Virus record (IMG/VR): IMGVR_UViG_3300020179_000036
Span: 1 to 58,560 of that record
Length of the DNA stretch: 58,560 bases
Origin: a virus
Taxonomy: Duplodnaviria > Caudoviricetes
Direction: 5' to 3' (one strand)
The notes under the pieces were generated by a model, which saw nothing but the letters and a program-made list of their open reading frames with translations, was not told where the DNA came from and did not search any database. Positions 3,245 through 48,041 of the stretch are shown here, in pieces. Position numbers and translations under genes: made by a program. Every line of letters begins with the position of its first letter. Position 1 is the first letter of the stretch.

Positions 3245-4668
3245 TGGCTTACTCCTACGTCACCTACACGGGAAACGGCGCCACGACCCAGTTTGCGGTG
3301 CCGTTTGGATACATCCGTAAGGAACACATTGAAGTTTCTTTGAACGGGACGGTTACCGCAGCCTTCACCTGGGTTACCAACGCCACCATTCAAATGAACA
3401 CCGCTCCCGCCAACGCGGTAGTGGTCAAAATTTTACGGATCACCCCAGTCAACGCATCGCTAGTCAATTTCACTGACGGCAGCACGCCGGTTGCTAGCGA
3501 CTTCAACACGACTAACACGCAAGGCCTGTACACCAACCAGGAATTGCGGGACATATCGGACAGCACAAACGCCCTGTCAAGCCAAGCGGTAACGGCAGCG
3601 CAAAACGCGACGAACACAGCCAATAGTGCGTCAGCTTCTGCGGCATCTGCGGTTTCTACAGCTAACAACGCAAACAGCACAGCGCAATCAACTATTGCTA
3701 CAGCAAACACAGCTAGCGCAAACGCTGCGGCGGCAGTTAGCACAGCCAACAATGCATCAGCAGCTGCTGCAGCTGCAGTTAATACGGCTAACAATGCCTC
3801 TGCTGCAGTTGGAGCTGCAACTACAACTGCCAATAACGCAGCGGCTGCTGTGGCGGCAGCTACTTCTGCGGCAAACGGAGCTGTTAATACCGCAAACGCG
3901 GCCAATGCCACAGCAAATACAGCACTAGGCAACAGCCAAACAGCAATTACTACAGCCAACAACGCCTCCACTGCGGCAAGTAACGCAACGACTACCGCTA
4001 ACAACGCTTCTGCTACCGCTAACAACGCTTCTACAGCAGCAAATAACGCTGTTGGCACAGCAAACTCTGCAGCAGCTGCTGTAGCCAATGCACTTCTCTA
4101 TGACGTCGTTGCCAACGTAGCTGCAATACCAGCCAACCCTGCAAACAACAAAGCTGTTGAAGTAACAAACAGCTCAAACATTCAAGCATTTTCGCCACTT
4201 GCGGGACTGCCTGCAGGCTTTGTTGGAGCTAGTGGCCTGAGCGTGCGGATTGTTTATTCAACTGCAGGCGCGACGTGGAATTTTATTCAGTATTTCCCTA
4301 ACGATCCAGAAAACCGTTACTTAAAATTATCTGGCGGCACTTTGACTGGCGCTATTACTGGAACACAAACTGGCAACATTATTCCTTTTTATTTTAATAC
4401 TTACGCTGGACTGCCATCGGCATCTACTTACCACGGTGCCGTTGCTCACGCTCATGACACCGGAGGGTTGTACTACGCCCATGGCGGGCAATGGGTCCAA
4501 CTGGCGGTGGCTGGAGCTTCTGCAGGGGCAATTATTGAAAATCAACAAACGATCAATAGTAGCTACACCTTGTCAGCGGGCTACAATGGCTCATCAGTAG
4601 GACCTGTTACGGTAGCCGCTGGGGTTTCGGTGACAGTTCCCGCCAATGCCGTCTGGGCAATTCTCTAG
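3244..4668 (+). CDS. Tail fibre protein (T7 gp17-like N-terminal adaptor, Ala/Asn/Thr coiled-coil shaft)
   Basis: N-terminus YTGNGATTQFAVPFGYI...RITP is typical of the gp17 attachment domain. ANNAS/ANTA repeats follow, and the gene is in the expected position. Confidence 0.9.
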   Translation: MAYSYVTYTGNGATTQFAVPFGYIRKEHIEVSLNGTVTAAFTWVTNATIQMNTAPANAVVVKILRITPVNASLVNFTDGSTPVASDFNTTNTQGLYTNQELRDISDSTNALSSQAVTAAQNATNTANSASASAASAVSTANNANSTAQSTIATANTASANAAAAVSTANNASAAAAAAVNTANNASAAVGAATTTANNAAAAVAAATSAANGAVNTANAANATANTALGNSQTAITTANNASTAASNATTTANNASATANNASTAANNAVGTANSAAAAVANALLYDVVANVAAIPANPANNKAVEVTNSSNIQAFSPLAGLPAGFVGASGLSVRIVYSTAGATWNFIQYFPNDPENRYLKLSGGTLTGAITGTQTGNIIPFYFNTYAGLPSASTYHGAVAHAHDTGGLYYAHGGQWVQLAVAGASAGAIIENQQTINSSYTLSAGYNGSSVGPVTVAAGVSVTVPANAVWAIL

Positions 4669-4670
4669 CC

Positions 4671-5999
4671 ATGGCTTACGGATCGGTCAAAGTTGATTCC
4701 ATTGTGACTAGCACGCAGGTCATCAATACTGATGACTTGGTTGCTAAGACACGTACCGTCAGCCCCGGCACGGGTTTGACTGGCGGTGGCGATTTGTCTG
4801 CCAACCGCACCATCAGTGCTGATGTGGCAACGCAAGCTGAAGCCGAGGCCGGCGCGGCTGCAAACAAATTGATGACGCCGCAGCGCACAGCGCAGGCGAT
4901 TGCTTTGTTGTCGCCGGCTCCGGTGTTTGCCTCGCAGGCCGAAGCTGAAGCTGGCTCGGCATCCGACAAAGTGATGTCCCCGCTGCGCACAGCGCAGGCG
5001 ATTGCAGCTTTAAGTGGCGGCGCTGTCTACTACAACCGCAGACCTCCTCTGCATCGCGGCTCGCTGTTTTACAAGACGGCTGCAACCACAATCAGCGTGG
5101 TGGCCGGTGCTGTGCTTAACGGCAAGCTCTACGCCACGGCAACCGCTGTGACGATGCCTGCCAGCTTTACCAACAACAGCGACTACGCCATTTGGCAGCA
5201 CCCCAGCACTGGTGCTTTGGTGGCTGACGCCAACTACACAACAGCACCTGCTGGCGCCACTGGCGGCTCGATTGTTGGCGGCTTCCACTACGTCCCTAGC
5301 GGGCGGCCAACGGGTTTTAATAACACCTCCCCAACAGGTAGTGCCGAAATCCTGGAGTTCAGCATTTTTGATCTGACTTATCGCCCCAGCTGCCCAGACC
5401 CTCGCGGAATGGTTTGCATCAACGATGCGTTTTGGATTGACATCTATTTGGCAGGGGCCACCAGCTATGCCGGCAGCACGTTCTCTGCTGTCCCCAGCAG
5501 CAAGATCGGCCTGACCATTGCTGATGGCAGCAGCTACGCCCTGGTGCCCGCTCAGTACGGCGGCAACGGCAGCAGCAACTACGGCAGCTTTACCTGGTAC
5601 GAAGCCTCAGAAATGGCTGCCAGCTTTGGCAAGCGCCTGCCGTTCTATGCCGAGTTTGCAGCGGCTGCGTTTGGTGCTCCAGAGGCCGGCAGCCGTGGCT
5701 CTGACGCAGGCACGGTGCAGTGGGAGCGAATTAGCAAGTTTGGTTTGGCCCAGGCAACGGGCGTCATGTGGCAGTGGGGCGCAGACACCTCTGGAAACGG
5801 CTCTGGCGGCTCCTGGTCGGCCAACACTGAGGGTAGAGGCAGTGTGTATTCGACCGATGCCCGCGCCGTCCTCCTCGGGGGCTACTGGAACGACGGGGCC
5901 TACTCCGGGTCTCGTTACGCCGTCTGGGACACCGGTCCCTGGGCCTCCGCCAACGGCCTTGGGGCGCGTTTTGCGGCTGGGCACCTGGTACTTGGATAG
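4671..5999 (+). CDS. mtd: DGR target: Mtd-like receptor-binding protein (C-type lectin fold, C-terminal VR)
   Basis: DPRGMVCINDAFWIDIYL, GVMWQWG and a terminal LLGGYW..GSR..W...GARF..HL motif resemble Bordetella phage BPP-1 Mtd. The VR lies at the 3' end. Confidence 0.9.
   Translation: MAYGSVKVDSIVTSTQVINTDDLVAKTRTVSPGTGLTGGGDLSANRTISADVATQAEAEAGAAANKLMTPQRTAQAIALLSPAPVFASQAEAEAGSASDKVMSPLRTAQAIAALSGGAVYYNRRPPLHRGSLFYKTAATTISVVAGAVLNGKLYATATAVTMPASFTNNSDYAIWQHPSTGALVADANYTTAPAGATGGSIVGGFHYVPSGRPTGFNNTSPTGSAEILEFSIFDLTYRPSCPDPRGMVCINDAFWIDIYLAGATSYAGSTFSAVPSSKIGLTIADGSSYALVPAQYGGNGSSNYGSFTWYEASEMAASFGKRLPFYAEFAAAAFGAPEAGSRGSDAGTVQWERISKFGLAQATGVMWQWGADTSGNGSGGSWSANTEGRGSVYSTDARAVLLGGYWNDGAYSGSRYAVWDTGPWASANGLGARFAAGHLVLG
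5863..5979 (+). repeat. DGR variable repeat (VR), copy 1
   Basis: 117-bp match to TR 6435-6551 with 19 substitutions, all opposite TR adenines. Confidence 0.97.
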
Positions 6000-6001
6000 G
6001 A

Positions 6002-6015
6002 GGCGCGACAGCGCC
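6002..6015 (+). promoter_or_regulatory. DGR target-recognition hairpin downstream of VR/IMH
   Basis: GGCGC-GACA-GCGCC stem-loop with a GRNA-type loop just after the mtd stop codon; repeated at 46120-46133. Confidence 0.7.
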
Positions 6016-6023
6016 GACTGCAA

Positions 6024-6419
6024 ATGACCAACAAGCGAGCCTCCGCAGATCCTTCTAAGGAGGCTCATGGCCTTTACATGGTGGAAAAATACGAGCGGGT
6101 CATTGACTACCTTTACCCACTTGCGCAGACAATTCCACGCAAGCACGGCACCTTTCGAGAGCTGCTAATTCGGCAGCTTTTTTTGGTGGCCGAGCACCTT
6201 AACGACGCCATCAAGGCCAACCAGCTTAGCCGCTGCTATGTACTCGACGGCAGCCTTGGCCAGCTCAGGCTGTTGCTGCGGTTCATGGTTCATCACAAGC
6301 GCAAGCTGATAACAGAGCACCAACTGGAAACCGCTCAGGCCCTAGCAGGCGAGGTGGGCTCCATGCTTGGCGGCTGGATCAAAAGACTGCAGGAACAGAA
6401 AAAAAGTGCAAAGCTGTAG
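6024..6419 (+). CDS. avd: DGR accessory variability determinant
   Basis: 131-aa basic helical protein between target and TR, with C-terminal EVGSMLGGWIK typical of Avd. Confidence 0.92.
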   Translation: MTNKRASADPSKEAHGLYMVEKYERVIDYLYPLAQTIPRKHGTFRELLIRQLFLVAEHLNDAIKANQLSRCYVLDGSLGQLRLLLRFMVHHKRKLITEHQLETAQALAGEVGSMLGGWIKRLQEQKKSAKL

Positions 6420-6434
6420 GCGGGCTTGATGGGA

Positions 6435-6551
6435 GCGCCGTCATCCTCGGGGGCAACTGGAACAACGAGGCCAACTCCGGGTCTCGTAACGCCAACTGGA
6501 ACAACAATCCCTGGAACTCCAACAACAACATTGGGGCGCGTTTTGCGGCTG
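6435..6551 (+). ncRNA. DGR template repeat (TR), copy 1
   Basis: AAC-rich copy of VR (13 AAY codons, 29 adenines) between avd and RT. Confidence 0.96.
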
Positions 6552-6706
6552 TGGCCACTGCTAAACACCACTTGGCTCTGCTGTTTCTCCGGGGCAGTAG
6601 GCCGGTGCCAACCAGGTGCCAGCCATCAAGTCCAGCTTCGGCAAACTCAGGGCCGAGTGGTGGCAATGGCAGGGAGTAGCTCGTCGAAACCTGCCGCTAC
6701 CTTCTA

Positions 6707-7681
6707 ATGGGCAAAAAATTTCGCAATCTCTACGAACAGATTTATCAGTGGGATAATTTGCTTGCAGCCTACGCAGAGGCAAAGCGCGGCAAAACTTACA
6801 GCAGTTCCTATTTACGTTTTAAGGAGTACTACCTAGCCAATTTGCGCCACCTTCAGTTGCGATTGATTGAAGGCGGCTGGAGACCCGATCCGCAGTTGGA
6901 GTTTGAAATTATTGATCCCAAGAAGCGAATGATTGCCTGCCAAAGTTTTCGTGATCGCGTGCTGCACCACGCCCTGATACAGGTGGTCGGGCCGATTCTT
7001 GACGCCGCGATGATGCCCCAGGTGTTTGCCTGCCGGGTCGGCTTGGGTACGCATCGCTGTGTCACCCGAATGCAGCAGTTGATGCGGCAGAACCCTGATG
7101 CGTGGCTGCTGCACGTGGACTTCAGCAAGTTCTTTCCCACCATTCCCCAAGACCTGCTACTGGCCCACTTGGGCAAGAAGCTCACCTGCCAGCGCACGTT
7201 GCTGTTAATTGAGCAGGTACTAAGCGTGCAGCCCACTGGCGTGCCGATTGGGGCGCTCACCAGTCAGACCTTTGCCAACTATTGGGGCGGCAGGCTGGAT
7301 CGTTTTATCGCATTTAAAGGCATTGGCAGTTTTGTGCGTTACATGGATGACGCGGCTGTGATTGTGAGCAGCAAAGCCGATGGACTGCAACTTAAAGATG
7401 AGATTTGCTCTTTTGTTGCCAACGAAATGGGGCAGCGGATTGGCAAGTGGAGTTTAGGCCCCGTGAATCGCGGCATCACCTTTTGCGGTTTTCGCATCCG
7501 CCGCAAGTACAAGCTGATCAAGCGACAGTCCATAATCCGCCAACGGCGCAAACTCAAGGTGCTGCTTAAGCACCAGGACTACGAAGGCTGGCGCCATTCG
7601 CAGATTGCTTGGATGGGCCACGTGCGCCATGGTGATGGACAGAATAGTCTTGTCCACCTAGGGCTTGCATTACCATGCTGA
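6707..7681 (+). CDS. brt: DGR reverse transcriptase
   Basis: FRDRVLHHAL, DFSKFFPTI, GVPIGALTSQ and RYMDD motifs; 324 aa with no maturase or endonuclease domain. Confidence 0.96.
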   Translation: MGKKFRNLYEQIYQWDNLLAAYAEAKRGKTYSSSYLRFKEYYLANLRHLQLRLIEGGWRPDPQLEFEIIDPKKRMIACQSFRDRVLHHALIQVVGPILDAAMMPQVFACRVGLGTHRCVTRMQQLMRQNPDAWLLHVDFSKFFPTIPQDLLLAHLGKKLTCQRTLLLIEQVLSVQPTGVPIGALTSQTFANYWGGRLDRFIAFKGIGSFVRYMDDAAVIVSSKADGLQLKDEICSFVANEMGQRIGKWSLGPVNRGITFCGFRIRRKYKLIKRQSIIRQRRKLKVLLKHQDYEGWRHSQIAWMGHVRHGDGQNSLVHLGLALPC

Positions 7682-7926
7682 TCGTCAACACCCCCTCCGA
7701 CTTGGCAGCTGCAGAAGTTGGCACCGAGCGGACGGCTTTTCTGAACAGCCTGCTGAATGACTACATCGTTTTTGATGACGCGGCCTATCCCGAAGGCTAT
7801 GACCGCAATCTGAAGGAAGGCGATGAAGGCTTTATTGCTCCCGTTATTCGCCAAGAATGGAACGCAGGCGCTGCTGCTGGCTGGGGTTTCGCCAGCCGAG
7901 AGCAGATCGAGGCATTGCTGAATTAA
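7675..7926 (+). CDS. Small protein coupled to the DGR RT
   Basis: Overlaps the RT stop codon; conserved in copy 2 (47793-48041) with mostly synonymous changes. Confidence 0.75.
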   Translation: MLIVNTPSDLAAAEVGTERTAFLNSLLNDYIVFDDAAYPEGYDRNLKEGDEGFIAPVIRQEWNAGAAAGWGFASREQIEALLN

Positions 7927-8165
7927 TGGAAAAGCCGTTGTCGCTACTTGGTGCTGCAGTCGCAGTCCTTACTGCGATTGTCGGCACCACAGTGGCGATT
8001 GATTCGCGTTACGCCAAGTCTGCGGAAGTGCAACAGCAATTTTGCGAGGCACGGAAGCAGCAGCTGCGTGACCGAATCTTTGAACTTGACCTGAAGCCTG
8101 ACAAATCACCTTCGGACAAGGCGCTCAAGGAGTACCTCAAGCAGCAGCTAAGCGATGCCTGTTAA
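7926..8165 (+). CDS. Small membrane-anchored protein (phage Y)
   Basis: ATG at 7926 overlaps the upstream stop; hydrophobic N-terminus LLGAAVAVLTAIVG. Confidence 0.6.
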   Translation: MEKPLSLLGAAVAVLTAIVGTTVAIDSRYAKSAEVQQQFCEARKQQLRDRIFELDLKPDKSPSDKALKEYLKQQLSDAC

Positions 8166-8292
8166 GAGCAAGGCTGGTACAGCCAAGATCGAGCACGTAT
8201 CCCGTGCGGCCTACAAAAAGACCAGTATTGGCAACTCCGTCAGGACAAAGGCCAAGCCTGGGCATAAAAAAAGCAGGGGTCAGGGGCACTAA
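8155..8292 (+). CDS. Small basic protein ending in RGQG
   Basis: MPVKSK...KKSRGQGH; homolog MAVKSK...KKLRGQGR at 48041-48175. Confidence 0.65.
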   Translation: MPVKSKAGTAKIEHVSRAAYKKTSIGNSVRTKAKPGHKKSRGQGH

Positions 8293-8318
8293 GCCACCTA
8301 ACCACCTGCAGTGCTGCC

Positions 8319-8471
8319 TTATTTTTTCTTGGCTGTCTTAGCAGAATCCTTAAAGTCCTTAGCGCTTGGAGCGCCTTTGGACCCAGGTTTCCGCATCTGC
8401 TCACCAGAGCCAGAAGCGATGCGTTCACGCTTGGCGTGGATGTTGGCGTAAAGGCCTTTTTTAGAAGCCAT
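8319..8471 (-). CDS. Small basic protein (KKGLYANI.AKR family)
   Basis: 50 aa; close homolog at 48906-49061. Confidence 0.8.
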   Translation of the reverse strand: MASKKGLYANIHAKRERIASGSGEQMRKPGSKGAPSAKDFKDSAKTAKKK

Positions 8472-8473
8472 GG

Positions 8474-8524
8474 TCAACACCCCTTTTTGCCGCCGCCCTT
8501 GCCGCCCTTGCTGCCTTTTTTCAT
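8474..8524 (-). CDS. 16-aa Lys/Gly micropeptide MKKGSKGGKGGGKKGC
   Basis: Same length and position in phage X (49063-49113, MKKGGKGGKGGGKKGY) with synonymous changes. Confidence 0.6.
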   Translation of the reverse strand: MKKGSKGGKGGGKKGC

Positions 8525-8639
8525 AAGTTTGTAGCGTCAACAGTCCAAGGCTATCTGCGCTTTGCCGTAGCGCAAATCCAGTAATAGCAAGCGTTTGCGT
8601 AGGCATTGCGAATTGGTAGGCTGACGCTGTACGCAGAAC

Positions 8640-8897
8640 TTGCTCGTGGTTGAGGTCGCTGCCGCGGTGTTAGGCGCCGCCATTACAGTCAGCGCCATGG
8701 GCGTAGGGGCCTTGGGGGCACGCGGCAGGGAGGGGAGGGACGCTCTGATTCGTTTGGCTTCCAGTGTGGACAACGTGGCAGAACGCCTTGAACAGTTGCA
8801 CGAGGACATCAGGAGTGACCGCAAGGAGTTCTTTTCTCGCCTAAACAATGTTGAGCAGCGTGTTGCTCGGCTTGAGGTGCCCGGCCCGCACATTTGA
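8640..8897 (+). CDS. Membrane/coiled-coil protein in the lysis region
   Basis: Hydrophobic N-terminus plus coiled coil; homolog at 48227-48472. Confidence 0.7.
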   Translation: MLVVEVAAAVLGAAITVSAMGVGALGARGREGRDALIRLASSVDNVAERLEQLHEDIRSDRKEFFSRLNNVEQRVARLEVPGPHI

Positions 8898-8921
8898 CAC
8901 AGTTCTCCACGTGTGTAGCGT
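8894..8921 (+). promoter_or_regulatory. Sigma70-like promoter with an operator in the spacer
   Basis: TTGACA (8894-8899), 16 bp, TAGCGT (8916-8921); operator motif TCTCCACGTGTGTAGC at 8904-8919. Confidence 0.55.
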
Positions 8922-8943
8922 TAGGTGGTGAGATCCCTGCGCT

Positions 8944-9129
8944 ATGGATCGTTTCGGTCAGTACGTCGCCTTGGCGATTGCGGTGCATGGGTTGGCGCTT
9001 GTGATCGTCAACATCACGCCAACGCCTAAGGACGACGAGGCTCTCGATGCAATCCAGCGAGTGGTGGTGAAGTTGTATCGAGCAGTCGAGATCCTCGCAG
9101 GGATCGTCGGGCCATTGGCGAAAAGGTAA
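8944..9129 (+). CDS. Putative holin
   Basis: 61 aa with a TM segment followed by TPTPKDD; lies near the endolysin. Confidence 0.6.
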   Translation: MDRFGQYVALAIAVHGLALVIVNITPTPKDDEALDAIQRVVVKLYRAVEILAGIVGPLAKR

Positions 9130-9132
9130 GCG

Positions 9133-10060: not shown

Positions 10061-10089
10061 GGAGACCAAAGCTCTCCACCCATGTAACC

Positions 10090-12523: not shown

Positions 12524-12565
12524 GAGTGGAGAGCAGATGACAGCAGGCTACCCAGAACGTTGTTG

Positions 12566-36997: not shown

Positions 36998-37000
36998 TCC

Positions 37001-39880: not shown

Positions 39881-42800
39881 TTGCTTTGATCTAGAGAAGC
39901 AGCTGCAAACTCTTCGCGAGCAGAAGGCCGCCAATGAAGCGGTGCAGCGTCGGCTGGCTGGTGAACTGAATCAAGCAGTTGCCAATCAGCTCGAGCCAAA
40001 GCCGGTTCGCTTCAGGATGCTTTCAGGCGACAAGCTCGAGATCAACCCACAAAGGTTCTGGAACCAGGTTGAACGCGATGCGTTGGCCATGGATGAGGAG
40101 GCGATTGGCCAAGCCGTCCGCGCTGGATTTGAGAAGCAAGCCAGGCCGATTGGTAGCAAAGGCCTGAACATCAACTACGCCCAGCTGCCCTTTGGCGAAG
40201 AGAACCTAGGCAAGCTGCTCGAGGTGTTGGCGCTTAAGCGCAATGCCAGCGAGAAGGGCGTTGAGCTGAGGCGGCCTTACACCGCAGGTGTTGCCGACGC
40301 TCAGTTCCGCCTGGTGGCCATGGCCTATGGCGCAGAGCCTGGGGCACTATTTGACGCCATGAAACGCAAGCTGGCGGGCATTGATGAGCTGCCGGTCAAC
40401 GCTTACATCGTCAACCGCGTGAAGATGGATGCGGTCCGCTCCTACGCGGATGCGCTGGATGAGGCTTCTGAGCTGATGAAGCTCGGCGCTTTGGACGATG
40501 CGGCCAAGACCAGCCTGGCCAACATCGCTCAATGGGCTCATGCGTTTGAGCAGTTTGACAACCAGGTGTCACGCAAGATCGCTCAAGCGCTACGCACCCG
40601 GCAGTTTGGCGACTGGGCGAACGAAAACATTTTCATAAAGTTCGACAAGGACGTCAGCCTTCTCACGCTTGATGAAATCAAAGCTGGCAGTTTGCTGGCC
40701 CAGGTAGAAGACGCGATTGCATCGGGCGACCCCCTTAAGCTAAAGCGCCTGGCCACAGCCAAGCGGCTTGACGAGCTGGCCGGGCGTTCACTCAACGAGC
40801 CCAACTTCATGACCCAGGTGCGGGTCTTGAACACCTACCGCAAGGACAACCTGTTTAGCGGTGTAGCCACCTGGCTGGTGCGCAACCCGACGTCGATCCT
40901 GGTCAGCGCCAACTACGGCCTGGAGGACATTGCAGAAGGCGCTCTGAAGTTCGGCATCAAGGCTGAGCTGGGCGCCATGGGCCATGCCTTCCGCTCGGTG
41001 CAGCAGGGCATGAGCACAGCTTGGTTAAACGCCTGGGACAACTTTGCCTATGGCAAGAAGACCTTTGACGTGAACAACTACGCCGAGCTGTCGGACGACA
41101 TTCTTGAGCAGACCAAGAACACGGTGAATCGAGATCTCAATGATGCTTGGGAACTATTTACCAGCCCGAGCTACCACTTCAAAACGGCGGGAACTGGGAC
41201 GGTAGTAACGTTCATGAACCTGATGAACTTGGGCTTCCGCAAGCTGCTGGGGGCGGGGGTTGAGCAGTTGACCGGCACCAGCGCTGGCTACACCCCGTCA
41301 TTCCGCCTGCTGAACGGTGGCGATGAGGTGATCAGGAAGATGAGCTTTGACTGGAAGGTCAACCATGAGGCCTGGCTGCGAGCTGCCAAAGAAGCCGAGG
41401 GTGTCGTGGAGCAAGGCGGCCAGCGGGCAGATCGCAACTGGATTCGTCAGCGGGCTGATCAGCTGGCCGAGAAGGCTGTCTTCAGTGGCCTAATGACCGA
41501 TGACGAGTTGGCCAAGCTGCGCCTACGAGAGCTTGGTGCCACAGCCGGCGACATGGACAACGAGGAGCTGCGGCTCCTGATGTTCAACAACCTGCACGGC
41601 ACACCCAATGCAGCCGATGAGCTGGGCAAATTGGGTGTTGAGCGGGGCAACCAGGTCACCTTTACTCAGGCCCTGGACGACCGTTTTACCCAAGGCGTGC
41701 AGTTGATGCGCAGCAACCCGTTGGTCGGGTGGGTCATGCCTGTGTGGCGAGTGCCGGCCAACGGCATGAAGTGGATGTTTGGCCACGACATGTACGTCCA
41801 AATCCCCAAGCAGCTTTATCTCGAGCTCAAGAACGCCTTGGGTGATGGCGGCTATGCGCGGCCTGGCAGCGACTCCTTTGGCAAGTTTTGGGAAGCCGGT
41901 GCCGTTGACTCGGATCTTCTGGCCAAAAGCAGGGCCTCGTTCCTATCTTCTTTAGCCCTGGCCAGCACCACACAGTTGCTGTGGGAGGCGGGCATCTTCA
42001 GCGACGGCGGGCCAACAAAAGAGGAGGACAGGGATCGTTTGGGCCCCACCTTTAGGCCGTACTCTTTCTCGCTGACCTATGGCGCCAATGAAGCCGTTAG
42101 CAAAATGTCTGGTGGATCAATCGATTTAATTGATCTGATGGGTCTGCAGGCAGACCTGCTGCGTGCACGACACGAAGGCCGAGTGGACAACAACAGCTTC
42201 ACTACACACATGGGGGGCATTGTTCATGCTTACGCTCGCATGGTTATGAACAAGGCATCTTTGACAGGTATTTCCTCCATAATCAATGCTTTAGTAAGGG
42301 CTGGCCGCGGCGGTGACGTGGACTGGGCTGGTGAGCTGGGCAAGCAGATGAACGGCATCCTGCCGCTTTCTGGCCTATTCACCTCCGCGTCCAGGGGCTT
42401 CAACGATCCCAATGAAACGGTTGCCAAGCGGCGTGAGCTCACCCCAGCCGAATACCAAGCACTAAAGCAAGACCCCAACTGGGAAATCTTTAGCAACATT
42501 GCCAGCCGGATCTTCAAGGACTACCCGATCCTTGGTCAGCTGGTGCCTCCTCAGCGGGAAGACAGAGATTGGCTGGGCGATCGGATCGAGCGGCCGCTGG
42601 GCCTGTCAGTGGACGAGACCATTCCCTTCATGCCGGTAATTGTGCCCAAGAGCCCGCTGCGAGATTGGTTGGCTCAGCACGGCCTGGGCATGAAGCCTCG
42701 CCCCGAGGGCCGCGTTTCAGAAGGCCTGCCGGTGCCGACCAACATGACCAAGCCGCAAGAGGCCACCTACAGGGAGGCAATGCGCACCATTCCTGGAGCG

Positions 42801-43202
42801 ATCCCTGCAGCAGCTGTGCTCGGTGCTGGCAATGCCACGATTAACGTGGGCACTGCGGTGTTCTCTGTTGACAGCTACGTGCAGGGACGGACGCTTAAGC
42901 AAGCGCTGGACAAGCTGCGTCAGGATCCTGAATACAACCTAGAGCTCAACAGCCCTGGTGGCCCCAGTCTGGTCACCCAGCCCGGGAAAGCCTTGAGCGA
43001 CAGAAGAGGTAGCGTGAATGATCCTCGCGGTGTCTACAAGGTGTTTGATGCGGTTGTCACCTACTACGACAAGCTCGGACTTCAAGAAATGGTCCGTCAA
43101 CACCCTGAGTTTCAGGAGATGGCATTGGCCAACTTGCGTGCCCGCAACGGCAATGTTCGAGCTCGTCTTGAAGCCAGCCCGCTAGGCCTTGGCCGGAAGT
43201 AG
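39873..43202 (+). CDS. Internal virion protein (gp16-like), phage Y
   Basis: Start MADCFDL overlaps the upstream stop; precedes the tail fibre; related to 1-3244. Confidence 0.75.
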   Translation: MADCFDLEKQLQTLREQKAANEAVQRRLAGELNQAVANQLEPKPVRFRMLSGDKLEINPQRFWNQVERDALAMDEEAIGQAVRAGFEKQARPIGSKGLNINYAQLPFGEENLGKLLEVLALKRNASEKGVELRRPYTAGVADAQFRLVAMAYGAEPGALFDAMKRKLAGIDELPVNAYIVNRVKMDAVRSYADALDEASELMKLGALDDAAKTSLANIAQWAHAFEQFDNQVSRKIAQALRTRQFGDWANENIFIKFDKDVSLLTLDEIKAGSLLAQVEDAIASGDPLKLKRLATAKRLDELAGRSLNEPNFMTQVRVLNTYRKDNLFSGVATWLVRNPTSILVSANYGLEDIAEGALKFGIKAELGAMGHAFRSVQQGMSTAWLNAWDNFAYGKKTFDVNNYAELSDDILEQTKNTVNRDLNDAWELFTSPSYHFKTAGTGTVVTFMNLMNLGFRKLLGAGVEQLTGTSAGYTPSFRLLNGGDEVIRKMSFDWKVNHEAWLRAAKEAEGVVEQGGQRADRNWIRQRADQLAEKAVFSGLMTDDELAKLRLRELGATAGDMDNEELRLLMFNNLHGTPNAADELGKLGVERGNQVTFTQALDDRFTQGVQLMRSNPLVGWVMPVWRVPANGMKWMFGHDMYVQIPKQLYLELKNALGDGGYARPGSDSFGKFWEAGAVDSDLLAKSRASFLSSLALASTTQLLWEAGIFSDGGPTKEEDRDRLGPTFRPYSFSLTYGANEAVSKMSGGSIDLIDLMGLQADLLRARHEGRVDNNSFTTHMGGIVHAYARMVMNKASLTGISSIINALVRAGRGGDVDWAGELGKQMNGILPLSGLFTSASRGFNDPNETVAKRRELTPAEYQALKQDPNWEIFSNIASRIFKDYPILGQLVPPQREDRDWLGDRIERPLGLSVDETIPFMPVIVPKSPLRDWLAQHGLGMKPRPEGRVSEGLPVPTNMTKPQEATYREAMRTIPGAIPAAAVLGAGNATINVGTAVFSVDSYVQGRTLKQALDKLRQDPEYNLELNSPGGPSLVTQPGKALSDRRGSVNDPRGVYKVFDAVVTYYDKLGLQEMVRQHPEFQEMALANLRARNGNVRARLEASPLGLGRK

Positions 43203-43244
43203 CCAAGCCAATAACATGAGGACTGCACAGGTGCAGACCTGCTC

Positions 43245-44786
43245 GTGGCACTTTCTTACGCCCAGTACGCCGGCAACGGGTCCACGACGACCTTCTCGGT
43301 CCCGTTTCCGTACATCCTGAAAGCTCACGTCAAGCTCTACACCGGATACAACATCCTCACTGGTGCTTACACGTCGCAGCTGGTTGACGGCACGAATTAC
43401 AACTGGACGAGCGGCACGCAAATCCAGGTAACTGCTGCACCGGCAAATGGTGTCACGCTCACGGTACTGCGTGATACGCCGGATGCAGCGCAGTTGGTGC
43501 CCTGGCAAGACGGCTCCAACCTGACCGCTGCCGACCTCAATAACGCCGACCTGCAGAACCTGTACGTCGTCCAGGAGCAGCAGGACCGTAACGACTCGGG
43601 CGCTGCTGCAGCTGTGGCGGCGCAGACTGCAGCGAGTACGGCAACGGCCGCGGCGACGGCAGCCACAACTGCGGCCAATACCGCCAACGCAACGGCGGCA
43701 GCCGCGACAACTGCGGCCGCCAACGCCACGACTGCCGCCAACGCCAGTACGGCCGCATCGACGCAGGCGATTGCCGACAGCCAGACAGCGCTGACTCAAA
43801 GCGCACAGGCCGTCTCAACGGCGAACACCGCCTCTAGCAACGCTGCGGCGGCAGTTAGCACAGCCAACAATGCATCAGCAGCTGCAGCAGCTGCAGTTAA
43901 TACGGCTAACAATGCCTCTGCTGCAGTTGGAGCTGCAACTACAACTGCCAATAACGCAGCGGCTGCTGTGGCGGCAGCTACTTCTGCGGCAAACGGGGCT
44001 GTCAATACCGCAAACGCGGCCAATGCCACAGCAAATACAGCACTAGGCAACAGCCAAACAGCAATTACTACAGCCAACAACGCCTCTACTGCGGCAAGTA
44101 ACGCAACGACTACCGCTAACAACGCTTCTGCTACCGCTAACAACGCTTCTACAGCAGCAAATAACGCTGTTGGCACAGCAAACGCTGCAGCAGCAGCTGT
44201 AGCTAATGCACTTCTCTATGACGTTGTTGCCAACGTAGCTGCAATACCAGCCAACCCTGCAAACAACAAAGCTGTTGAAGTAACAAACAGCACAAACATT
44301 CAAGCATTTTCGCCACTTGCGGGACTGCCTGCGGGCTTTGTTGGAGCTAGTGGCCTGAGCGTGCGGATTGTTTATTCAGCTGCAGGCGCGACGTGGAATT
44401 TTATTCAGTATTTCCCCAACGATCCAGAAAGCCGTTACTTGAAATTATCTGGCGGCACTTTGACTGGCGCTATTACTGGAACACAAACTGGCAACATTAT
44501 TCCTTTTTATTTTGATACTTACGCTGGACTGCCATCGGCATCTACTTACCACGGTGCCGTTGCTCACGCTCATGACACCGGAGGGTTGTACTACGCCCAT
44601 GGCGGGCAATGGGTCCAACTGGCGGTGGCTGGAGCTTCTGCAGGGGCAATTATTGAAAATCAACAAACGATCAATAGTAGCTACACCTTGTCAGCGGGCT
44701 ACAATGGCTCATCAGTAGGACCTGTTACGGTAGCCGCTGGGGTTTCGGTGACAGTTCCCGCCAATGCCGTCTGGGCAATTCTCTAG
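43245..44786 (+). CDS. Tail fibre protein (gp17-like), phage Y N-terminus
   Basis: YAGNGSTTTFSVPFPY, RDTP and DGSNLTAADLN..QNLYVVQE motifs; C-terminal part shared with 3244-4668. Confidence 0.92.
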   Translation: MALSYAQYAGNGSTTTFSVPFPYILKAHVKLYTGYNILTGAYTSQLVDGTNYNWTSGTQIQVTAAPANGVTLTVLRDTPDAAQLVPWQDGSNLTAADLNNADLQNLYVVQEQQDRNDSGAAAAVAAQTAASTATAAATAATTAANTANATAAAATTAAANATTAANASTAASTQAIADSQTALTQSAQAVSTANTASSNAAAAVSTANNASAAAAAAVNTANNASAAVGAATTTANNAAAAVAAATSAANGAVNTANAANATANTALGNSQTAITTANNASTAASNATTTANNASATANNASTAANNAVGTANAAAAAVANALLYDVVANVAAIPANPANNKAVEVTNSTNIQAFSPLAGLPAGFVGASGLSVRIVYSAAGATWNFIQYFPNDPESRYLKLSGGTLTGAITGTQTGNIIPFYFDTYAGLPSASTYHGAVAHAHDTGGLYYAHGGQWVQLAVAGASAGAIIENQQTINSSYTLSAGYNGSSVGPVTVAAGVSVTVPANAVWAIL

Positions 44787-44788
44787 CC

Positions 44789-46117
44789 ATGGCTTACGGA
44801 TCGGTCAAAGTTGATTCCATTGTGACTAGCACGCAGGTCATCAATACTGATGACTTGGTTGCTAAGACACGTACCGTCAGCCCCGGCACGGGTTTGACTG
44901 GCGGTGGCGATTTGTCTGCCAACCGCACCATCAGTGCTGATGTGGCAACGCAAGCTGAAGCCGAGGCCGGCGCGGCTGCAAACAAATTGATGACGCCGCA
45001 GCGCACAGCGCAGGCGATTGCTTTGTTGTCGCCGGCTCCGGTGTTTGCCTCGCAGGCCGAAGCTGAAGCTGGCTCGGCATCCGACAAAGTGATGTCCCCG
45101 CTGCGCACAGCGCAGGCGATTGCAGCTTTAAGTGGCGGCGCTGTCTACTACAACCGCAGACCTCCTCTGCATCGCGGCTCGCTGTTTTACAAGACGGCTG
45201 CAACCACAATCAGCGTGGTGGCCGGTGCTGTGCTTAACGGCAAGCTCTACGCCACGGCAACCGCTGTGACGATGCCTGCCAGCTTTACCAACAACAGCGA
45301 CTACGCCATTTGGCAGCACCCCAGCACTGGTGCTTTGGTGGCTGACGCCAACTACACAACAGCACCTGCTGGCGCCACTGGCGGCTCGATTGTTGGCGGC
45401 TTCCACTACGTCCCTAGCGGGCGGCCAACGGGTTTTAATAACACCTCCCCAACAGGTAGTGCCGAAATCCTGGAGTTCAGCATTTTTGATCTGACTTATC
45501 GCCCCAGCTGCCCAGACCCTCGCGGAATGGTTTGCATCAACGATGCGTTTTGGATTGACATCTATTTGGCAGGGGCCACCAGCTATGCCGGCAGCACGTT
45601 CTCTGCTGTCCCCAGCAGCAAGATCGGCCTGACCATTGCTGATGGCAGCAGCTACGCCCTGGTGCCCGCTCAGTACGGCGGCAACGGCAGCAGCAACTAC
45701 GGCAGCTTTACCTGGTACGAAGCCTCAGAAATGGCTGCCAGCTTTGGCAAGCGCCTGCCGTTCTATGCCGAGTTTGCAGCGGCTGCGTTTGGTGCTCCAG
45801 AGGCCGGCAGCCGTGGCTCTGACGCAGGCACGGTGCAGTGGGAGCGAATTAGCAAGTTTGGTTTGGCCCAGGCAACGGGCGTCATGTGGCAGTGGGGCGC
45901 AGACACCTCTGGAAACGGCTCTGGCGGCTCCTGGTCGGCCAACACTGAGGGTAGAGGCAGTGTGTATTCGACCGATGCCCGCGCCGTCCTCCTCGGGGGC
46001 TACTGGAACGACGGGGCCTACTCCGGGTCTCGTTACGCCGTCTGGGACACCGGTCCCTGGGCCTCCGCCAACGGCCTTGGGGCGCGTTTTGCGGCTGGGC
46101 ACCTGGTACTTGGATAG
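44789..46117 (+). CDS. mtd: Mtd-like DGR target, copy 2
   Basis: Translation identical to 4671-5999. Confidence 0.9.
   Translation: MAYGSVKVDSIVTSTQVINTDDLVAKTRTVSPGTGLTGGGDLSANRTISADVATQAEAEAGAAANKLMTPQRTAQAIALLSPAPVFASQAEAEAGSASDKVMSPLRTAQAIAALSGGAVYYNRRPPLHRGSLFYKTAATTISVVAGAVLNGKLYATATAVTMPASFTNNSDYAIWQHPSTGALVADANYTTAPAGATGGSIVGGFHYVPSGRPTGFNNTSPTGSAEILEFSIFDLTYRPSCPDPRGMVCINDAFWIDIYLAGATSYAGSTFSAVPSSKIGLTIADGSSYALVPAQYGGNGSSNYGSFTWYEASEMAASFGKRLPFYAEFAAAAFGAPEAGSRGSDAGTVQWERISKFGLAQATGVMWQWGADTSGNGSGGSWSANTEGRGSVYSTDARAVLLGGYWNDGAYSGSRYAVWDTGPWASANGLGARFAAGHLVLG
45981..46097 (+). repeat. DGR VR, copy 2
   Basis: Identical to VR copy 1. Confidence 0.96.
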
Positions 46118-46141
46118 GAGGCGCGACAGCGCCGACTGCAA

Positions 46142-46537
46142 ATGACCAACAAGCGAGCCTCCGCAGATCCTTCTAAGGAGGCTCATGGCCTTTACATGGT
46201 GGAAAAATACGAGCGGGTCATTGACTACCTTTACCCACTTGCGCAGACAATTCCACGCAAGCACGGCACCTTTCGAGAGCTGCTAATTCGGCAGCTTTTT
46301 TTGGTGGCCGAGCACCTTAACGACGCCATCAAGGCCAACCAGCTTAGCCGCTGCTATGTACTCGACGGCAGCCTTGGCCAGCTCAGGCTGTTGCTGCGGT
46401 TCATGGTTCATCACAAGCGCAAGCTGATAACAGAGCACCAACTGGAAACCGCTCAGGCCCTAGCAGGCGAGGTGGGCTCCATGCTTGGCGGCTGGATCAA
46501 AAGACTGCAGGAACAGAAAAAAAGTGCAAAGCTGTAG
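46142..46537 (+). CDS. avd: Avd, copy 2
   Basis: Identical to 6024-6419. Confidence 0.92.
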   Translation: MTNKRASADPSKEAHGLYMVEKYERVIDYLYPLAQTIPRKHGTFRELLIRQLFLVAEHLNDAIKANQLSRCYVLDGSLGQLRLLLRFMVHHKRKLITEHQLETAQALAGEVGSMLGGWIKRLQEQKKSAKL

Positions 46538-46552
46538 GCGGGCTTGATGGGA

Positions 46553-46669
46553 GCGCCGTCATCCTCGGGGGCAACTGGAACAACGAGGCCAACTCCGGGT
46601 CTCGTAACGCCAACTGGAACAACAATCCCTGGAACTCCAACAACAACATTGGGGCGCGTTTTGCGGCTG
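46553..46669 (+). ncRNA. DGR TR, copy 2
   Basis: Identical to 6435-6551. Confidence 0.96.
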
Positions 46670-46824
46670 TGGCCACTGCTAAACACCACTTGGCTCTGCT
46701 GTTTCTCCGGGGCAGTAGGCCGGTGCCAACCAGGTGCCAGCCATCAAGTCCAGCTTCGGCAAACTCAGGGCCGAGTGGTGGCAATGGCAGGGAGTAGCTC
46801 GTCGAAACCTGCCGCTACCTTCTA

Positions 46825-47799
46825 ATGGGCAAAAAATTTCGCAATCTCTACGAACAGATTTATCAGTGGGATAATTTGCTTGCAGCCTACGCAGAGGCAA
46901 AGCGCGGCAAAACTTACAGCAGTTCCTATTTACGTTTTAAGGAGTACTACCTAGCCAATTTGCGCCACCTTCAGTTGCGATTGATTGAAGGCGGCTGGAG
47001 ACCCGATCCGCAGTTGGAGTTTGAAATTATTGATCCCAAGAAGCGAATGATTGCCTGCCAAAGTTTTCGTGATCGCGTGCTGCACCACGCCCTGATACAG
47101 GTGGTCGGGCCGATTCTTGACGCCGCGATGATGCCCCAGGTGTTTGCCTGCCGGGTCGGCTTGGGTACGCATCGCTGTGTCACCCGAATGCAGCAGTTGA
47201 TGCGGCAGAACCCTGATGCGTGGCTGCTGCACGTGGACTTCAGCAAGTTCTTTCCCACCATTCCCCAAGACCTGCTACTGGCCCACTTGGGCAAGAAGCT
47301 CACCTGCCAGCGCACGTTGCTGTTAATTGAGCAGGTACTAAGCGTGCAGCCCACTGGCGTGCCGATTGGGGCGCTCACCAGTCAGACCTTTGCCAACTAT
47401 TGGGGCGGCAGGCTGGATCGTTTTATCGCATTTAAAGGCATTGGCAGTTTTGTGCGTTACATGGATGACGCGGCTGTGATTGTGAGCAGCAAAGCCGATG
47501 GACTGCAACTTAAAGATGAGATTTGCTCTTTTGTTGCCAACGAAATGGGGCAGCGGATTGGCAAGTGGAGTTTAGGCCCCGTGAATCGCGGCATCACCTT
47601 TTGCGGTTTTCGCATCCGCCGCAAGTACAAGCTGATCAAGCGACAGTCCATAATCCGCCAACGGCGCAAACTCAAGGTGCTGCTTAAGCACCAGGACTAC
47701 GAAGGCTGGCGCCATTCGCAGATTGCTTGGATGGGCCACGTGCGCCATGGTGATGGACAGAATAGTCTTGTCCACCTAGGGCTTGCATTACCATGCTGA
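46825..47799 (+). CDS. brt: DGR reverse transcriptase, copy 2
   Basis: Identical to 6707-7681. Confidence 0.96.
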   Translation: MGKKFRNLYEQIYQWDNLLAAYAEAKRGKTYSSSYLRFKEYYLANLRHLQLRLIEGGWRPDPQLEFEIIDPKKRMIACQSFRDRVLHHALIQVVGPILDAAMMPQVFACRVGLGTHRCVTRMQQLMRQNPDAWLLHVDFSKFFPTIPQDLLLAHLGKKLTCQRTLLLIEQVLSVQPTGVPIGALTSQTFANYWGGRLDRFIAFKGIGSFVRYMDDAAVIVSSKADGLQLKDEICSFVANEMGQRIGKWSLGPVNRGITFCGFRIRRKYKLIKRQSIIRQRRKLKVLLKHQDYEGWRHSQIAWMGHVRHGDGQNSLVHLGLALPC

Positions 47800-48041
47800 T
47801 CGTCAACACCCCCTCCGACTTGGCAGCTGCAGAAGTCGGCACTGAGCGGACGGCTTTTCTGAACAGCCTGCTGAATGACTACATCGTTTTTGATGACGCG
47901 GCCTATCCCGAAGGCTATGACCGCAATCTGAAGGAAGGCGATGAGGGCTACATTGCTCCCGTTATTCGCCAAGAATGGAACGCAGGCGCTGCTGCTGGCT
48001 GGGGATTTACCAGTCGTGCGCAAATTGAAGAGCTGCTGTAA
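47793..48041 (+). CDS. Small protein coupled to the RT, copy 2
   Basis: Allele of 7675-7926 that diverges at the C-terminus. Confidence 0.75.
   Translation: MLIVNTPSDLAAAEVGTERTAFLNSLLNDYIVFDDAAYPEGYDRNLKEGDEGYIAPVIRQEWNAGAAAGWGFTSRAQIEELL

What the first reader, a model, noticed from the sequence alone, without database searches (positions are those of the whole stretch)
3721..48004. Two different phages joined through a shared 4.17-kb tail-tip/DGR cassette: cointegrate or assembly figure-eight
Seen: the direct repeats are 40,118 bp apart and enclose exactly one set of T7-like genes. The flanks hold a second, divergent set (different terL, integrase, endolysin, gp16 and att target). Both att sites sit intact between int and RNAP, and no host genes occur. 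Inference: this is what a single crossover between two circular genomes inside the shared cassette gives, whether in vivo or in the assembler. Either way, two distant phages recently exchanged the whole receptor-binding/DGR module.
Basis: partly seen in the sequence, partly recalled or inferred. Interest (0 to 1): 0.8.

Follow-up and report, generated by a model that had tools for sequence, protein, structure and literature searches.

The report
Shared tail-fibre/DGR cassette; join probably assembly-made
Two distantly related lake cyanophages carry almost the same 4.2-kb host-recognition module with a built-in mutator, but their joining into one 58.5-kb molecule is most likely made by the assembler, not by nature.

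Summary
The segment 3721-7886 recurs at 43839-48004 (offset 40,118). There are 25 mismatches, and 4397-7718 (3,322 bp) is identical. The repeat holds the part of a T7-type tail fibre after its N-terminal domain, an Mtd-like DGR target with its VR, Avd, TR, the DGR RNA, the RT and an 83-aa ORF.

Between the copies lies one complete phage, X, syntenic with Synechococcus phage S-SRP02. The flanks belong to a second phage, Y, whose terL is 76% identical to Prochlorococcus MPP-C phages. X and Y share only 41% (terL) and 29% (integrase); their gp16-like proteins show no similarity.

The physical join is probably an assembler loop walk (about 0.8).
- In run X1, exact-match contigs give the cassette depth 112-122 against 32-36 for X, not the 2:1 a cointegrate predicts.
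- Two independent contigs link Y-left to Y-right (L082, L089).
- S-SRP02 and the near-unit-length records behind L028 and L031 have X-type genes on both sides of this position.

The window is a whole IMG/VR record 1.46 times unit length. Cassette sharing across lineages stands, but the perfect core identity may be inflated by the assembly. No spanning reads were available.

The parts
2..3244 (+). Y: gp16-like internal virion protein, 5' end cut by the contig start
   Evidence: phrog_6651 internal virion protein, E 2.3e-23. No similarity to X 39828-43202. L096 is 100% identical to window 1-1536 and extends it upstream.
3244..4668 (+). Tail fibre, Y version: own N-terminal T7 tail-fibre domain (aa 2-141), shared part from nt 3721 (aa 160)
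   Evidence: PF03906, E 2.2e-29; phrog_32829; edge at 3721.
3721..7886 (+). Repeat copy A (4,166 bp)
4671..5999 (+). Mtd-like DGR target protein (442 aa)
   Evidence: phrog_11262 tail protein, E 1.8e-124; PF21916 Mtd second domain; 72-75% nt identity to mtd of Synechococcus siphophages S-CBS1/S-CBS3.
5856..5979 (+). Variable repeat (VR), C-terminal codons of the target
   Evidence: 22 mismatches to TR in 124 nt. 20 are at TR adenines, and all 20 fall at codon positions 1 or 2.
6024..6419 (+). Avd accessory protein
   Evidence: phrog_3206; PF22296 bAvd.
6428..6551 (+). Template repeat (TR)
   Evidence: aligns at 74.8% to the annotated TR of Bordetella phage BPP-1.
6575..6701 (+). DGR RNA element downstream of TR
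   Evidence: Rfam RF03022 Phage_DGR, 65.4 bits against a gathering score of 50.
6707..7681 (+). DGR reverse transcriptase (324 aa)
   Evidence: phrog_1423, E 1.7e-87; PF00078; IGALTSQ and YMDD seen in the translation.
7675..7926 (+). 83-aa ORF of unknown function that always follows the target/DGR; the right edge of the repeat falls in its last codons
   Evidence: phrog_30757; present after the target in relatives with and without an RT.
7887..43838 (+). X-specific DNA: the rest of one S-SRP02-like cyanopodovirus. C39 peptidase/endolysin 9344-10105(-), terL 10373-12229(-), int 16370-17368, RNAP 17862-20273, SSB 20308-21009, RusA 21009-21401, exonuclease 23710-24450, portal 25976-27625, scaffold 27622-28488, capsid 28598-29605, tail tube A/B 29703-32862, internal proteins 32799-43202, own fibre N-terminus from 43245.
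17704..17750 (+). attP of X: 5' part of a tRNA(CAU)-like sequence
   Evidence: Rfam tRNA-clan match at 17705-17770, E 0.0022. The 47 bp are 100% conserved in L088, whose flanks are only 65-70% identical. All 4 laid runs show a depth spike in bin 17343-18009; loose ends at 17746 are among those listed for 3 of them (X1, X4, X11; the table was truncated).
43839..48004 (+). Repeat copy B, with the same features as copy A shifted by 40,118; preceded by the X fibre N-terminus (43245-43838)
48005..58560 (+). Y-right: small ORFs (48227-48723), endolysin 49326-50318(-), terL 50528-52258(-), terS 52258-52584(-), early ORFs, int 56918-58021, start of RNAP 58136-58558 (cut by the contig end)
   Evidence: terL 76% aa to Prochlorococcus phages P-SCSP1.
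58023..58104 (-). Candidate attP of Y: tRNA 3'-part-like sequence (T-arm, acceptor, CCA)
   Evidence: Weak: Rfam tRNA clan at 19.5 bits, E 1.4, plus my reading.

Best explanation
Two separate, distantly related DNA-polymerase-less T7-like cyanophages coexist in a lake population. X resembles S-SRP02 and has a 40.1-kb unit. Y resembles MPP-C. At the same genome position, between the internal-virion-protein genes and the lysis/terminase block, both carry a nearly identical 4.17-kb host-recognition cassette. The cassette is the distal part of the tail fibre, an Mtd-like receptor-binding protein, a complete DGR (Avd, TR, DGR RNA, RT) that rewrites about 20 adenine-templated positions in the protein's C-terminus, and an 83-aa ORF. 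Each phage keeps its own N-terminal fibre domain, which docks the fibre to its own tail. The cassette moved between the lineages by homologous recombination during co-infection of a shared Cyanobium/Synechococcus-type host (inferred). The 58.5-kb contig is not one molecule. In the assembly graph, the identical core is one edge entered from Y-left and X-left and left toward X-right and Y-right. X forms a loop on that edge. The assembler walked Y-left, core, X loop, core, Y-right. This writes the core twice and inserts X into Y. Shown: the repeat, its content, the two gene sets, unequal depth, and native linkages in other contigs. Inferred: the assembler's behaviour and the recombination route.
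For: 1. Depth. In run X1, contigs with 0 differences from the window have depth 121.9 (3721-4903), 112.5 (5010-5870) and 120.3 (5959-6661) in the cassette. X has 36 (8682-13729) and 32.1 (13783-20000). One contig starts exactly at 3721, and a contig leaving the cassette at 7886 continues with the Y-right sequence (compared). A sole cointegrate predicts cassette = 2 x X and Y-flank = X. Bin 3336-4002, which includes the Y-specific fibre N-terminus, has 113.6.
2. Native Y linkage. Metagenome contig L082 carries Y-left (95.6-97.6% identical), the cassette (96.7-98.5%) and Y-right (99.3%). IMG/VR contig L089 carries Y-left (91%), a different fibre module of about 3.5 kb, and Y-right (92% nt; terL 99% aa).
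3. Native X linkage. Isolate S-SRP02 (42,143 bp) and the IMG/VR records behind L028 (41,324 bp) and L031 (43,692 bp, unit about 42,147) have X-type gp16 and fibre on one side and X-type peptidase and terL on the other. In run X4, cassette contigs (15.6-16.9) match X-like contigs (13-20) about 1:1.
4. Size. The record is 58,560 bp, 1.46 times the 40,118-bp unit. Both ends cut Y genes, and L096 continues Y beyond position 1.
5. Precedent. The record behind L031 overshoots its unit, and its ends overlap at 95.5%.
6. Both VR copies are identical in the window, as expected if one edge was read twice.
7. Mobility. 24 of 57 IMG/VR loci with the target carry an RT 76-91% identical, on backbones ranging from X-like and Y-like podoviruses to records without a T7-type RNAP and the siphoviruses S-CBS1/S-CBS3.
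Against: No read or contig spanning the 3.3-kb identical core in the source sample could be examined. All 21 runs offered are kept only as short-read contigs, so a real cointegrate or heteroconcatemer present as a minority is not excluded. Up to about a third of the Y-left/cassette molecules could continue into X by depth alone. Logan depths are one figure per contig and sum everything laid, so they are not copy numbers; the tool itself warns of this. It is not known whether X1 is the sample the record came from. Exact Y-left sequence is not visible in X1's contigs, because a roughly 94% variant at depth about 810 dominates there. Y's depth is therefore inferred only from the fibre N-terminus bin and the cassette. 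L082 and L089 are relatives from other assemblies, not the same strain, and short-read contigs can be chimeric themselves. The description of assembler loop traversal is from my knowledge, not from a call.
Confidence: 0.78

Rival explanations
1. A real in-vivo cointegrate or heteroconcatemer. X and Y co-infected one cell and recombined once inside the shared cassette. The joined replicative DNA, too long to be packaged, was sampled from infected cells.
For: The architecture is exactly what one crossover gives. X encodes a gp2.5-like annealing protein, RusA and an exonuclease, and 3.3 kb of identity is an ample substrate. Alleles at the 15 left-edge sites are mosaic in L082 (8 copy-A-like, 7 copy-B-like), which shows that recombination does occur here. 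The runs are lake-water metagenomes, so cell-associated DNA is possible.
Against: Depth in X1 is about 3.3-3.7:1 for cassette against X, not 2:1, and unequal on the two sides of the 7886 junction. The native linkages exist for both lineages. The two VR copies are identical despite a seemingly intact DGR. A complete cointegrate would be about twice the roughly 40-kb unit and not packageable (inference from unit lengths).
Confidence: 0.1
2. The sharing itself is overstated. Y's true cassette is a diverged or RT-less version like L082, and the assembler threaded Y's flanks through X's cassette after collapsing sparse differences.
For: An RT-deleted form (6251 joined to 7613) occurs in L082 and in run X11. 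Y-like IMG/VR loci L047-L050 have target then orf83 with no Avd or RT. In L082 the orf83 segment is only 87.6% identical to the window's. Contig assemblers drop rare variants, as the tool text notes.
Against: In X1 the RT region (bins 6671-8004) has depth about 131 against 32-36 for X, so a carrier other than X holds an RT-bearing cassette. The dominant exact contig 3721-4903 carries the copy-A (Y-linked) alleles, and a contig runs from the cassette end into Y-right. The dense differences at 3768-4396 were preserved in the window, so differences of that density in the core would have been preserved too (inference).
Confidence: 0.1
3. Two prophages integrated in tandem in a host chromosome.
For: Both phages encode tyrosine integrases.
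Against: There are no host genes and no complete tRNA gene. The attP of X is unsplit and flanked by phage DNA on both sides. The junctions lie in the fibre/DGR cassette, not at att sites.
Confidence: 0.01

Closest known systems
Synechococcus phage S-SRP02 (MW822601; Front Microbiol 2022, PMC8790148)
   Same: X is collinear with it: minus-strand C39 peptidase and terL, integrase, T7-type RNAP, SSB, RusA, exonuclease, T7-like structural module and three large internal proteins. Amino-acid identities are terL 91%, capsid 91%, portal 85%, int 80% and RNAP 65%.
   Different: S-SRP02 gave no match to the DGR cassette DNA (blastn 'distant') and none to the target, Avd or RT proteins. Its receptor-binding region holds other genes. 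I read passages of the paper found by term search; 'diversity-generating' occurs 0 times in it.
MPP-C cyanopodoviruses, Prochlorococcus phages P-SCSP1 (ISME J 2022, PMC9860041)
   Same: Y's terL is 76% identical. The layout matches: minus-strand terminase genes at the right end, and a single-subunit RNAP.
   Different: Y has an integrase and, by the contig, a DGR cassette. The P-SCSP1h record annotates neither. 'Reverse transcriptase' occurs 0 times in the paper, of which I read passages only. Only about 14 kb of Y lies in the window.
Bordetella phage BPP-1 DGR (mtd-avd-TR-brt)
   Same: Same parts in the same order: Mtd-like target with a C-terminal VR, Avd, TR, DGR RNA (Rfam RF03022) and RT. 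Substitutions are adenine-specific. The TR aligns at 74.8% to the BPP-1 TR.
   Different: The host phage type is a T7-like cyanopodovirus, and the target follows a T7-type fibre gene. Activity was not tested.
mtd region of Synechococcus siphophages S-CBS1 / S-CBS3
   Same: Nearest isolate DNA to the target gene (72-75% nt). The target is followed by the same 83-aa ORF.
   Different: These are siphoviruses. Only RT remnants of 37-86 aa were detected and no Avd.
Modular tail-fibre exchange in T7-like phages (conserved N-terminal domain, swapped distal part); recalled from general knowledge
   Same: The exchange edge lies 19 (Y) and 48 (X) residues behind the PF03906 N-terminal domain.
   Different: The swapped unit also carries a second receptor-binding gene and a complete DGR.
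Repeat-induced chimeric contigs / loop traversal in short-read metagenome assembly; recalled, no call
   Same: The topology is in-edge, repeat, loop, repeat, out-edge. The core is perfectly identical. Contig ends fall inside genes of the less well assembled partner.
   Different: The assembly graph and the source reads were not available to me.

Membership tests
Diversity-generating retroelement (DGR) | TR/VR pair whose differences fall at TR adenines | tested here: met
   20 of 22 mismatches in 124 nt are at TR adenines. The other 2 lie at the 5' edge (5860-5861). All 20 are at codon positions 1 or 2.
Diversity-generating retroelement (DGR) | DGR-type reverse transcriptase next to TR | tested here: met
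   phrog_1423, E 1.7e-87; PF00078; IGALTSQ and YMDD in the translation. That [I/L/V]GxxxSQ marks DGR RTs is recalled.
Diversity-generating retroelement (DGR) | Accessory protein Avd and DGR RNA element | tested here: met
   PF22296 bAvd at 73.5 bits (cut-off 40); Rfam RF03022 at 65.4 bits (gathering 50).
Diversity-generating retroelement (DGR) | VR at the C-terminus of a ligand-binding (C-type-lectin-fold) target | tested here: inconclusive
   VR covers the last roughly 48 codons of a protein with the Mtd second domain (PF21916). The fold of the VR domain was not modelled.
Diversity-generating retroelement (DGR) | Ongoing mutagenic homing | not testable with these tools
   Only contigs were available. 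Relative L082 differs at VR (84.4% identity) far more than in the neighbouring DNA (98%). This fits past diversification but shows no current activity.
S-SRP02 / MPP-C type T7-like cyanopodovirus (X) | Single-subunit RNAP, T7-like structural module, minus-strand terminase block, no DNA polymerase | tested here: met
   RNAP phrog_414, E 1.9e-125. Synteny with S-SRP02. No DNA polymerase among the X ORFs scanned, and no gap long enough for one between 20.3 and 26 kb.
S-SRP02 / MPP-C type T7-like cyanopodovirus (Y) | Same features | tested here: inconclusive
   Minus-strand terL (76% to P-SCSP1) and terS, int, the first 141 aa of an RNAP and a gp16-like protein are present. The replication and capsid genes lie outside the window.
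Phage cointegrate (one physical molecule) | Equal abundance of both partners and twofold abundance of the shared segment | tested here: not met
   In X1 the cassette is 112-122 (exact contigs) against 32-36 for X. The caveat is that these are contig k-mer depths.
Phage cointegrate (one physical molecule) | Single molecules spanning both recombinant junctions | not testable with these tools
   All 21 runs offered are short-read contigs.
Integrated (tandem) prophage | Host flanks and split att sites | tested here: not met
   No host genes or tRNA genes were found, and attP of X is intact.

The most novel reading that the evidence does not exclude
The contig records a real recombination intermediate: an X-Y heteroconcatemer or cointegrate formed in a co-infected picocyanobacterial cell. 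Such intermediates would be the vehicle that keeps one DGR-armed receptor-binding cassette nearly identical across cyanophage lineages that otherwise share under 45% protein identity. This would be concerted evolution of a shared host-recognition module.
Probability: 0.1. Interest if true: 0.65.

Novelty: new member of a known kind. Interest (0 to 1): 0.4.

Why it matters
1. Data quality. This IMG/VR record is rated 100% complete but most likely merges two viruses. Host-range, taxonomy or genome-size inferences drawn from it would be wrong. The same phage group shows another over-walked record.

2. Biology. A complete DGR sits in DNA-polymerase-less T7-like cyanopodoviruses. My full-text searches found no paper combining 'diversity-generating' with 'cyanopodovirus' (0 papers). 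None of the titles or abstract starts listed for 'Autographiviridae' or 'cyanophage' + 'tail fiber' describes it (listings only). The cassette is portable. Relatives with RTs 76-91% identical sit on X-like and Y-like podoviruses, on records without a T7 RNAP, and as remnants in siphoviruses. This suggests that phages competing for the same freshwater picocyanobacteria trade a self-diversifying receptor-binding module.

Tried and rejected
- Exact 41-mer of the RT region in IMG/VR: 0 hits. Exact 47-mer of Y-right in IMG/VR: 0 hits. The window's own record is excluded by the tool, so no near-identical IMG/VR contig could show an alternative join.
- The metagenome scan with an exact 41-mer gave only 3 contigs. 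L083 and L084 lie wholly inside the cassette and say nothing about linkage.
- Read laying served only Logan contigs, so there were no spanning reads, read pairs or true per-base depth. In X1 the listed long contigs stop at 5870 and resume at 5959, inside the VR.
- The joints at 4505->8194 (X4), 5262->17214 (X1) and 6468->16911 (X11) have short sides (20-69 letters) and were ignored.
- A loose-end consensus from X5 at 3239 was searched in the window with up to 3 mismatches: 0 matches. That upstream sequence belongs to a third backbone.
- The genome-contig scan with the attP 42-mer found no host tRNA gene, only an X-like phage fragment binned in a Cyanobium MAG. The host assignment therefore rests on that binning and on the hosts of S-SRP02, S-CBS1/3 and P-SCSP1.
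- attP of Y was not found in the records behind L089, L096 and L048. All three are fragments, so this is uninformative.
- The breaks at 13730-13782 are a simple (ACC)n run, not genome ends.
- Supplements of the papers were not seen. The supplementary tables of PMC8144416 may list DGRs from such phages.
- No structure prediction or complex prediction was run.

Full report
OBSERVATION

The window is an entire IMG/VR virus record of 58,560 bp. It is classed linear and rated 100% complete. A direct repeat at offset exactly 40,118 is real: 3721-7886 matches 43839-48004. Fifteen mismatches lie in 3768-4396 and none in 4397-7718, a perfect core of 3,322 bp. A few more mismatches follow from 7719 on. 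The left edge is abrupt, with identity of about 40% before 3721 and near 100% after. The right edge decays over the last codons of an 83-aa ORF, at 7887-7926.

WHAT THE REPEAT HOLDS

The repeat starts inside a T7-type tail-fibre gene. The two versions are 3244-4668 and 43245-44786. Each has its own Pfam PF03906 N-terminal domain (Y aa 2-141, X aa 3-151). The identity starts at Y aa 160 and X aa 199. After the fibre come:
- a 442-aa Mtd-like protein (phrog_11262, PF21916);
- Avd (PF22296);
- a 124-nt TR;
- the Rfam Phage_DGR RNA (65.4 bits, gathering score 50);
- a 324-aa RT with IGALTSQ and YMDD;
- an 83-aa ORF (phrog_30757).

The VR forms the last codons of the target. Of the 22 TR/VR mismatches, 20 are at TR adenines, and all 20 fall at codon positions 1 or 2. 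This is a complete, canonical DGR. The nearest isolate DNA is the mtd region of the Synechococcus siphophages S-CBS1/S-CBS3, at 72-75%.

THE TWO PHAGES

The 7887-43838 stretch plus one cassette copy is one gene set. It is collinear with the isolate Synechococcus phage S-SRP02 (42,143 bp). Amino-acid identities are terL 91%, capsid 91%, portal 85%, int 80% and RNAP 65%. The minus-strand peptidase/terminase block and the lack of a DNA polymerase are features of that lineage.

The flanks hold a gp16-like protein (2-3244). On the right they hold small ORFs, a minus-strand endolysin, terL and terS, an integrase, and the first 141 aa of an RNAP. Y's terL is 76% identical to Prochlorococcus MPP-C phages P-SCSP1, which have the same layout.

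X against Y gives terL 41%, integrase 29%, RNAP N-terminus 28% (weak), and no similarity for the gp16-like proteins or the endolysins.

attP of X is a 5' tRNA(CAU)-like fragment at 17704-17750. It is 100% conserved in a relative whose flanks are only 65-70% identical. Reads from abundant other DNA pile up on it in all four laid runs. A candidate attP of Y (a tRNA 3' part on the minus strand, about 58023-58104) is only weakly supported. No complete tRNA gene and no host gene were found.

IS THE JOIN PHYSICAL?

Twenty lake and freshwater runs hold parts of window 1-10000, and all are kept only as short-read contigs. I laid four of them on window 1-20000.

In X1, contigs with 0 differences from the window gave these depths:

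| Region | Coordinates | Depth |
|---|---|---|
| Cassette | 3721-4903 | 121.9 |
| Cassette | 5010-5870 | 112.5 |
| Cassette | 5959-6661 | 120.3 |
| X | 8682-13729 | 36 |
| X | 13783-20000 | 32.1 |

- One contig begins exactly at 3721. Another leaves the cassette at 7886 into the sequence that the window has at 48005 onward (compare).
- The ratio of about 3.3-3.7 does not fit a sole cointegrate, which predicts 2. It fits a non-X carrier of the cassette roughly 2-3 times as abundant as X. The bin holding the Y-specific fibre N-terminus has 113.6.
- In X4, from another study, cassette contigs (15.6-16.9) and X-like contigs (13-20) are about 1:1.
- These are per-contig k-mer depths and sum everything laid. 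They are indicative, not copy numbers.

Independent contigs show the parental linkages.
- Metagenome contig L082 (4,326 bp) runs from Y-left (95.6-97.6% identical) through the cassette (96.7-98.5%; VR only 84.4%) and across a 1,361-bp deletion of avd-3'/TR/RT. It then enters Y-right (99.3%). Past the edge it aligns to X-right at only 70.5%.
- IMG/VR contig L089 links Y-left (91%) to Y-right (92% nt; terL 99% aa) through a different module of about 3.5 kb.
- S-SRP02 and the records behind L028 and L031 have X-type genes on both sides of this position. L005 and L013 show an X-type fibre N-terminus upstream and X-like terL (68-71% aa) downstream.
- L096 is 100% identical to window 1-1536 and continues Y upstream, so the contig start is not a genome end.
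- The record behind L031 overshoots its own unit. Its first 1,300 bp match 42148-43447 at 95.5%. Assemblies of this phage group evidently do walk past one unit into a variant.

INTERPRETATION

The simplest account is a graph walk: Y-left, shared edge, X loop, shared edge, Y-right. This description of assembler behaviour comes from my knowledge, not from a call. It explains several things:
- the 1.46-unit length;
- the contig ends inside Y genes;
- the perfect core;
- the identical VRs.

It also means that the 100% identity of the core is an upper bound. Sparse differences between the real X and Y copies would have been collapsed. The dense differences at 3768-4396 (97.8% identity) were kept.

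A real cointegrate or heteroconcatemer as a minority form is not excluded (about 0.1). Nor is the possibility that Y's true cassette differs more than the contig shows (about 0.1). Against the latter, X1's RT-region depth of about 131 requires an RT-bearing carrier other than X.

BIOLOGY THAT STANDS

A DGR-armed receptor-binding cassette sits at the same position in two cyanopodovirus lineages that share 29-41% identity in their comparable proteins. Each lineage keeps its own fibre N-terminal domain.

The cassette is widespread and mobile. All 57 IMG/VR loci with marker hits carry the target. Of these, 24 carry a full RT at 76-91% identity, and 17 have target then orf83 without a full RT, some with RT or Avd remnants. 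The backbones include X-like (L005, L013, L028, L031), Y-like (L047-L050), a distant podovirus (L010, tail tube B 31%), records without a T7 RNAP (G001 of 71,302 bp, and G002), and the siphoviruses S-CBS1/S-CBS3.

The fibre start is a further exchange point.
- In X1, a roughly 94% variant of gp16(Y) at depth about 810 diverges at about 3259.
- In X5, a Y-type fibre N-terminus follows an upstream sequence absent from the window.

The likely host is a freshwater Cyanobium/Synechococcus. This rests on the S-SRP02 host and on an X-like fragment binned in a Cyanobium MAG.

COMPARISON AND NOVELTY

DGRs on phage receptor-binding proteins and modular fibre exchange are both known, so this is a new member of known kinds. 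In the held library, no paper combines 'diversity-generating' with 'cyanopodovirus'. The S-SRP02 and MPP-C papers do not mention a DGR or an RT in the passages and term counts I saw. Roux et al. 2021 (PMC8144416; passages only) suggest intragenic recombination of DGR targets in general. Supplements were closed.

VERDICT

The join is probably an artefact, and the cassette sharing is real and moderately interesting. Interest 0.4.

Noticed in passing
G005 (record of L031): 1-1300 vs 42148-43447: Another IMG/VR record of an X-like phage (43,692 bp) overshoots its unit of about 42,147 bp. Its two ends overlap at 95.5% identity (59 mismatches, no gaps). It therefore ends in a strain variant of its own start, including a second partial RNAP.
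   Followed up: partly
window 6251-7612 (same in copy B): A 1,361-bp deletion removes the 3' end of avd, the TR and most of the RT. The same breakpoints occur in metagenome contig L082 and in a contig of run X11. 17 of 57 IMG/VR relatives have target then orf83 without a full RT. DGR loss seems frequent while the target is kept.
   Followed up: partly
window 1-3335: In run X1 a roughly 94%-identical variant of the Y gp16-like gene has contig depth about 810. That is over 6 times the cassette and over 20 times X. It diverges from the window at about 3259, the start of the fibre gene. A third, much more abundant phage shares Y's internal protein but has another fibre.
   Followed up: no
window 8005-9338 and 48005-49113: The small-ORF region after the cassette is mosaic. 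8323-8524 and 8646-8881 of X match 48913-49113 and 48227-48462 of Y at about 77%, in swapped order. All four runs show many loose ends between 8182 and 8811, and X5 and X11 show depth spikes there.
   Followed up: no
window 34184-36997 vs 49326-50318(-): The C-terminal roughly 130 aa of X's 937-aa internal virion protein are 47% identical to the N-terminal part of Y's endolysin. A lytic domain is shared between a virion-internal protein and an endolysin.
   Followed up: no
L088 3719-3765 (contig binned in a Cyanobium MAG): This 6.2-kb contig in a GTDB Cyanobium MAG is an X-like int-attP-RNAP phage fragment, not host DNA. The 47-bp attP core is 100% identical although the flanks are 65-70% identical.
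   Followed up: partly
L082 vs window 5856-5979: The VR of the Y-like relative is 84.4% identical to the window's VR, while the adjacent target sequence is about 98% identical. This fits DGR-driven divergence between strains.
   Followed up: no
G001 (71,302 bp) and G002 (47,638 bp), records of L015 and L014: Two records from one sample carry the target-Avd-RT-orf83 cassette (RT 85% aa) but no T7-type RNAP. The cassette also sits in a non-T7-like phage type.
   Followed up: partly
window 3724-3819, 3982-4050, 43681-43756, 44066-44168: Tandem 18-, 21- and 42-bp repeats encode an Ala/Asn/Thr-rich fibre shaft at and just after the left edge of the shared cassette. They are a plausible recombination substrate.
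   Followed up: no
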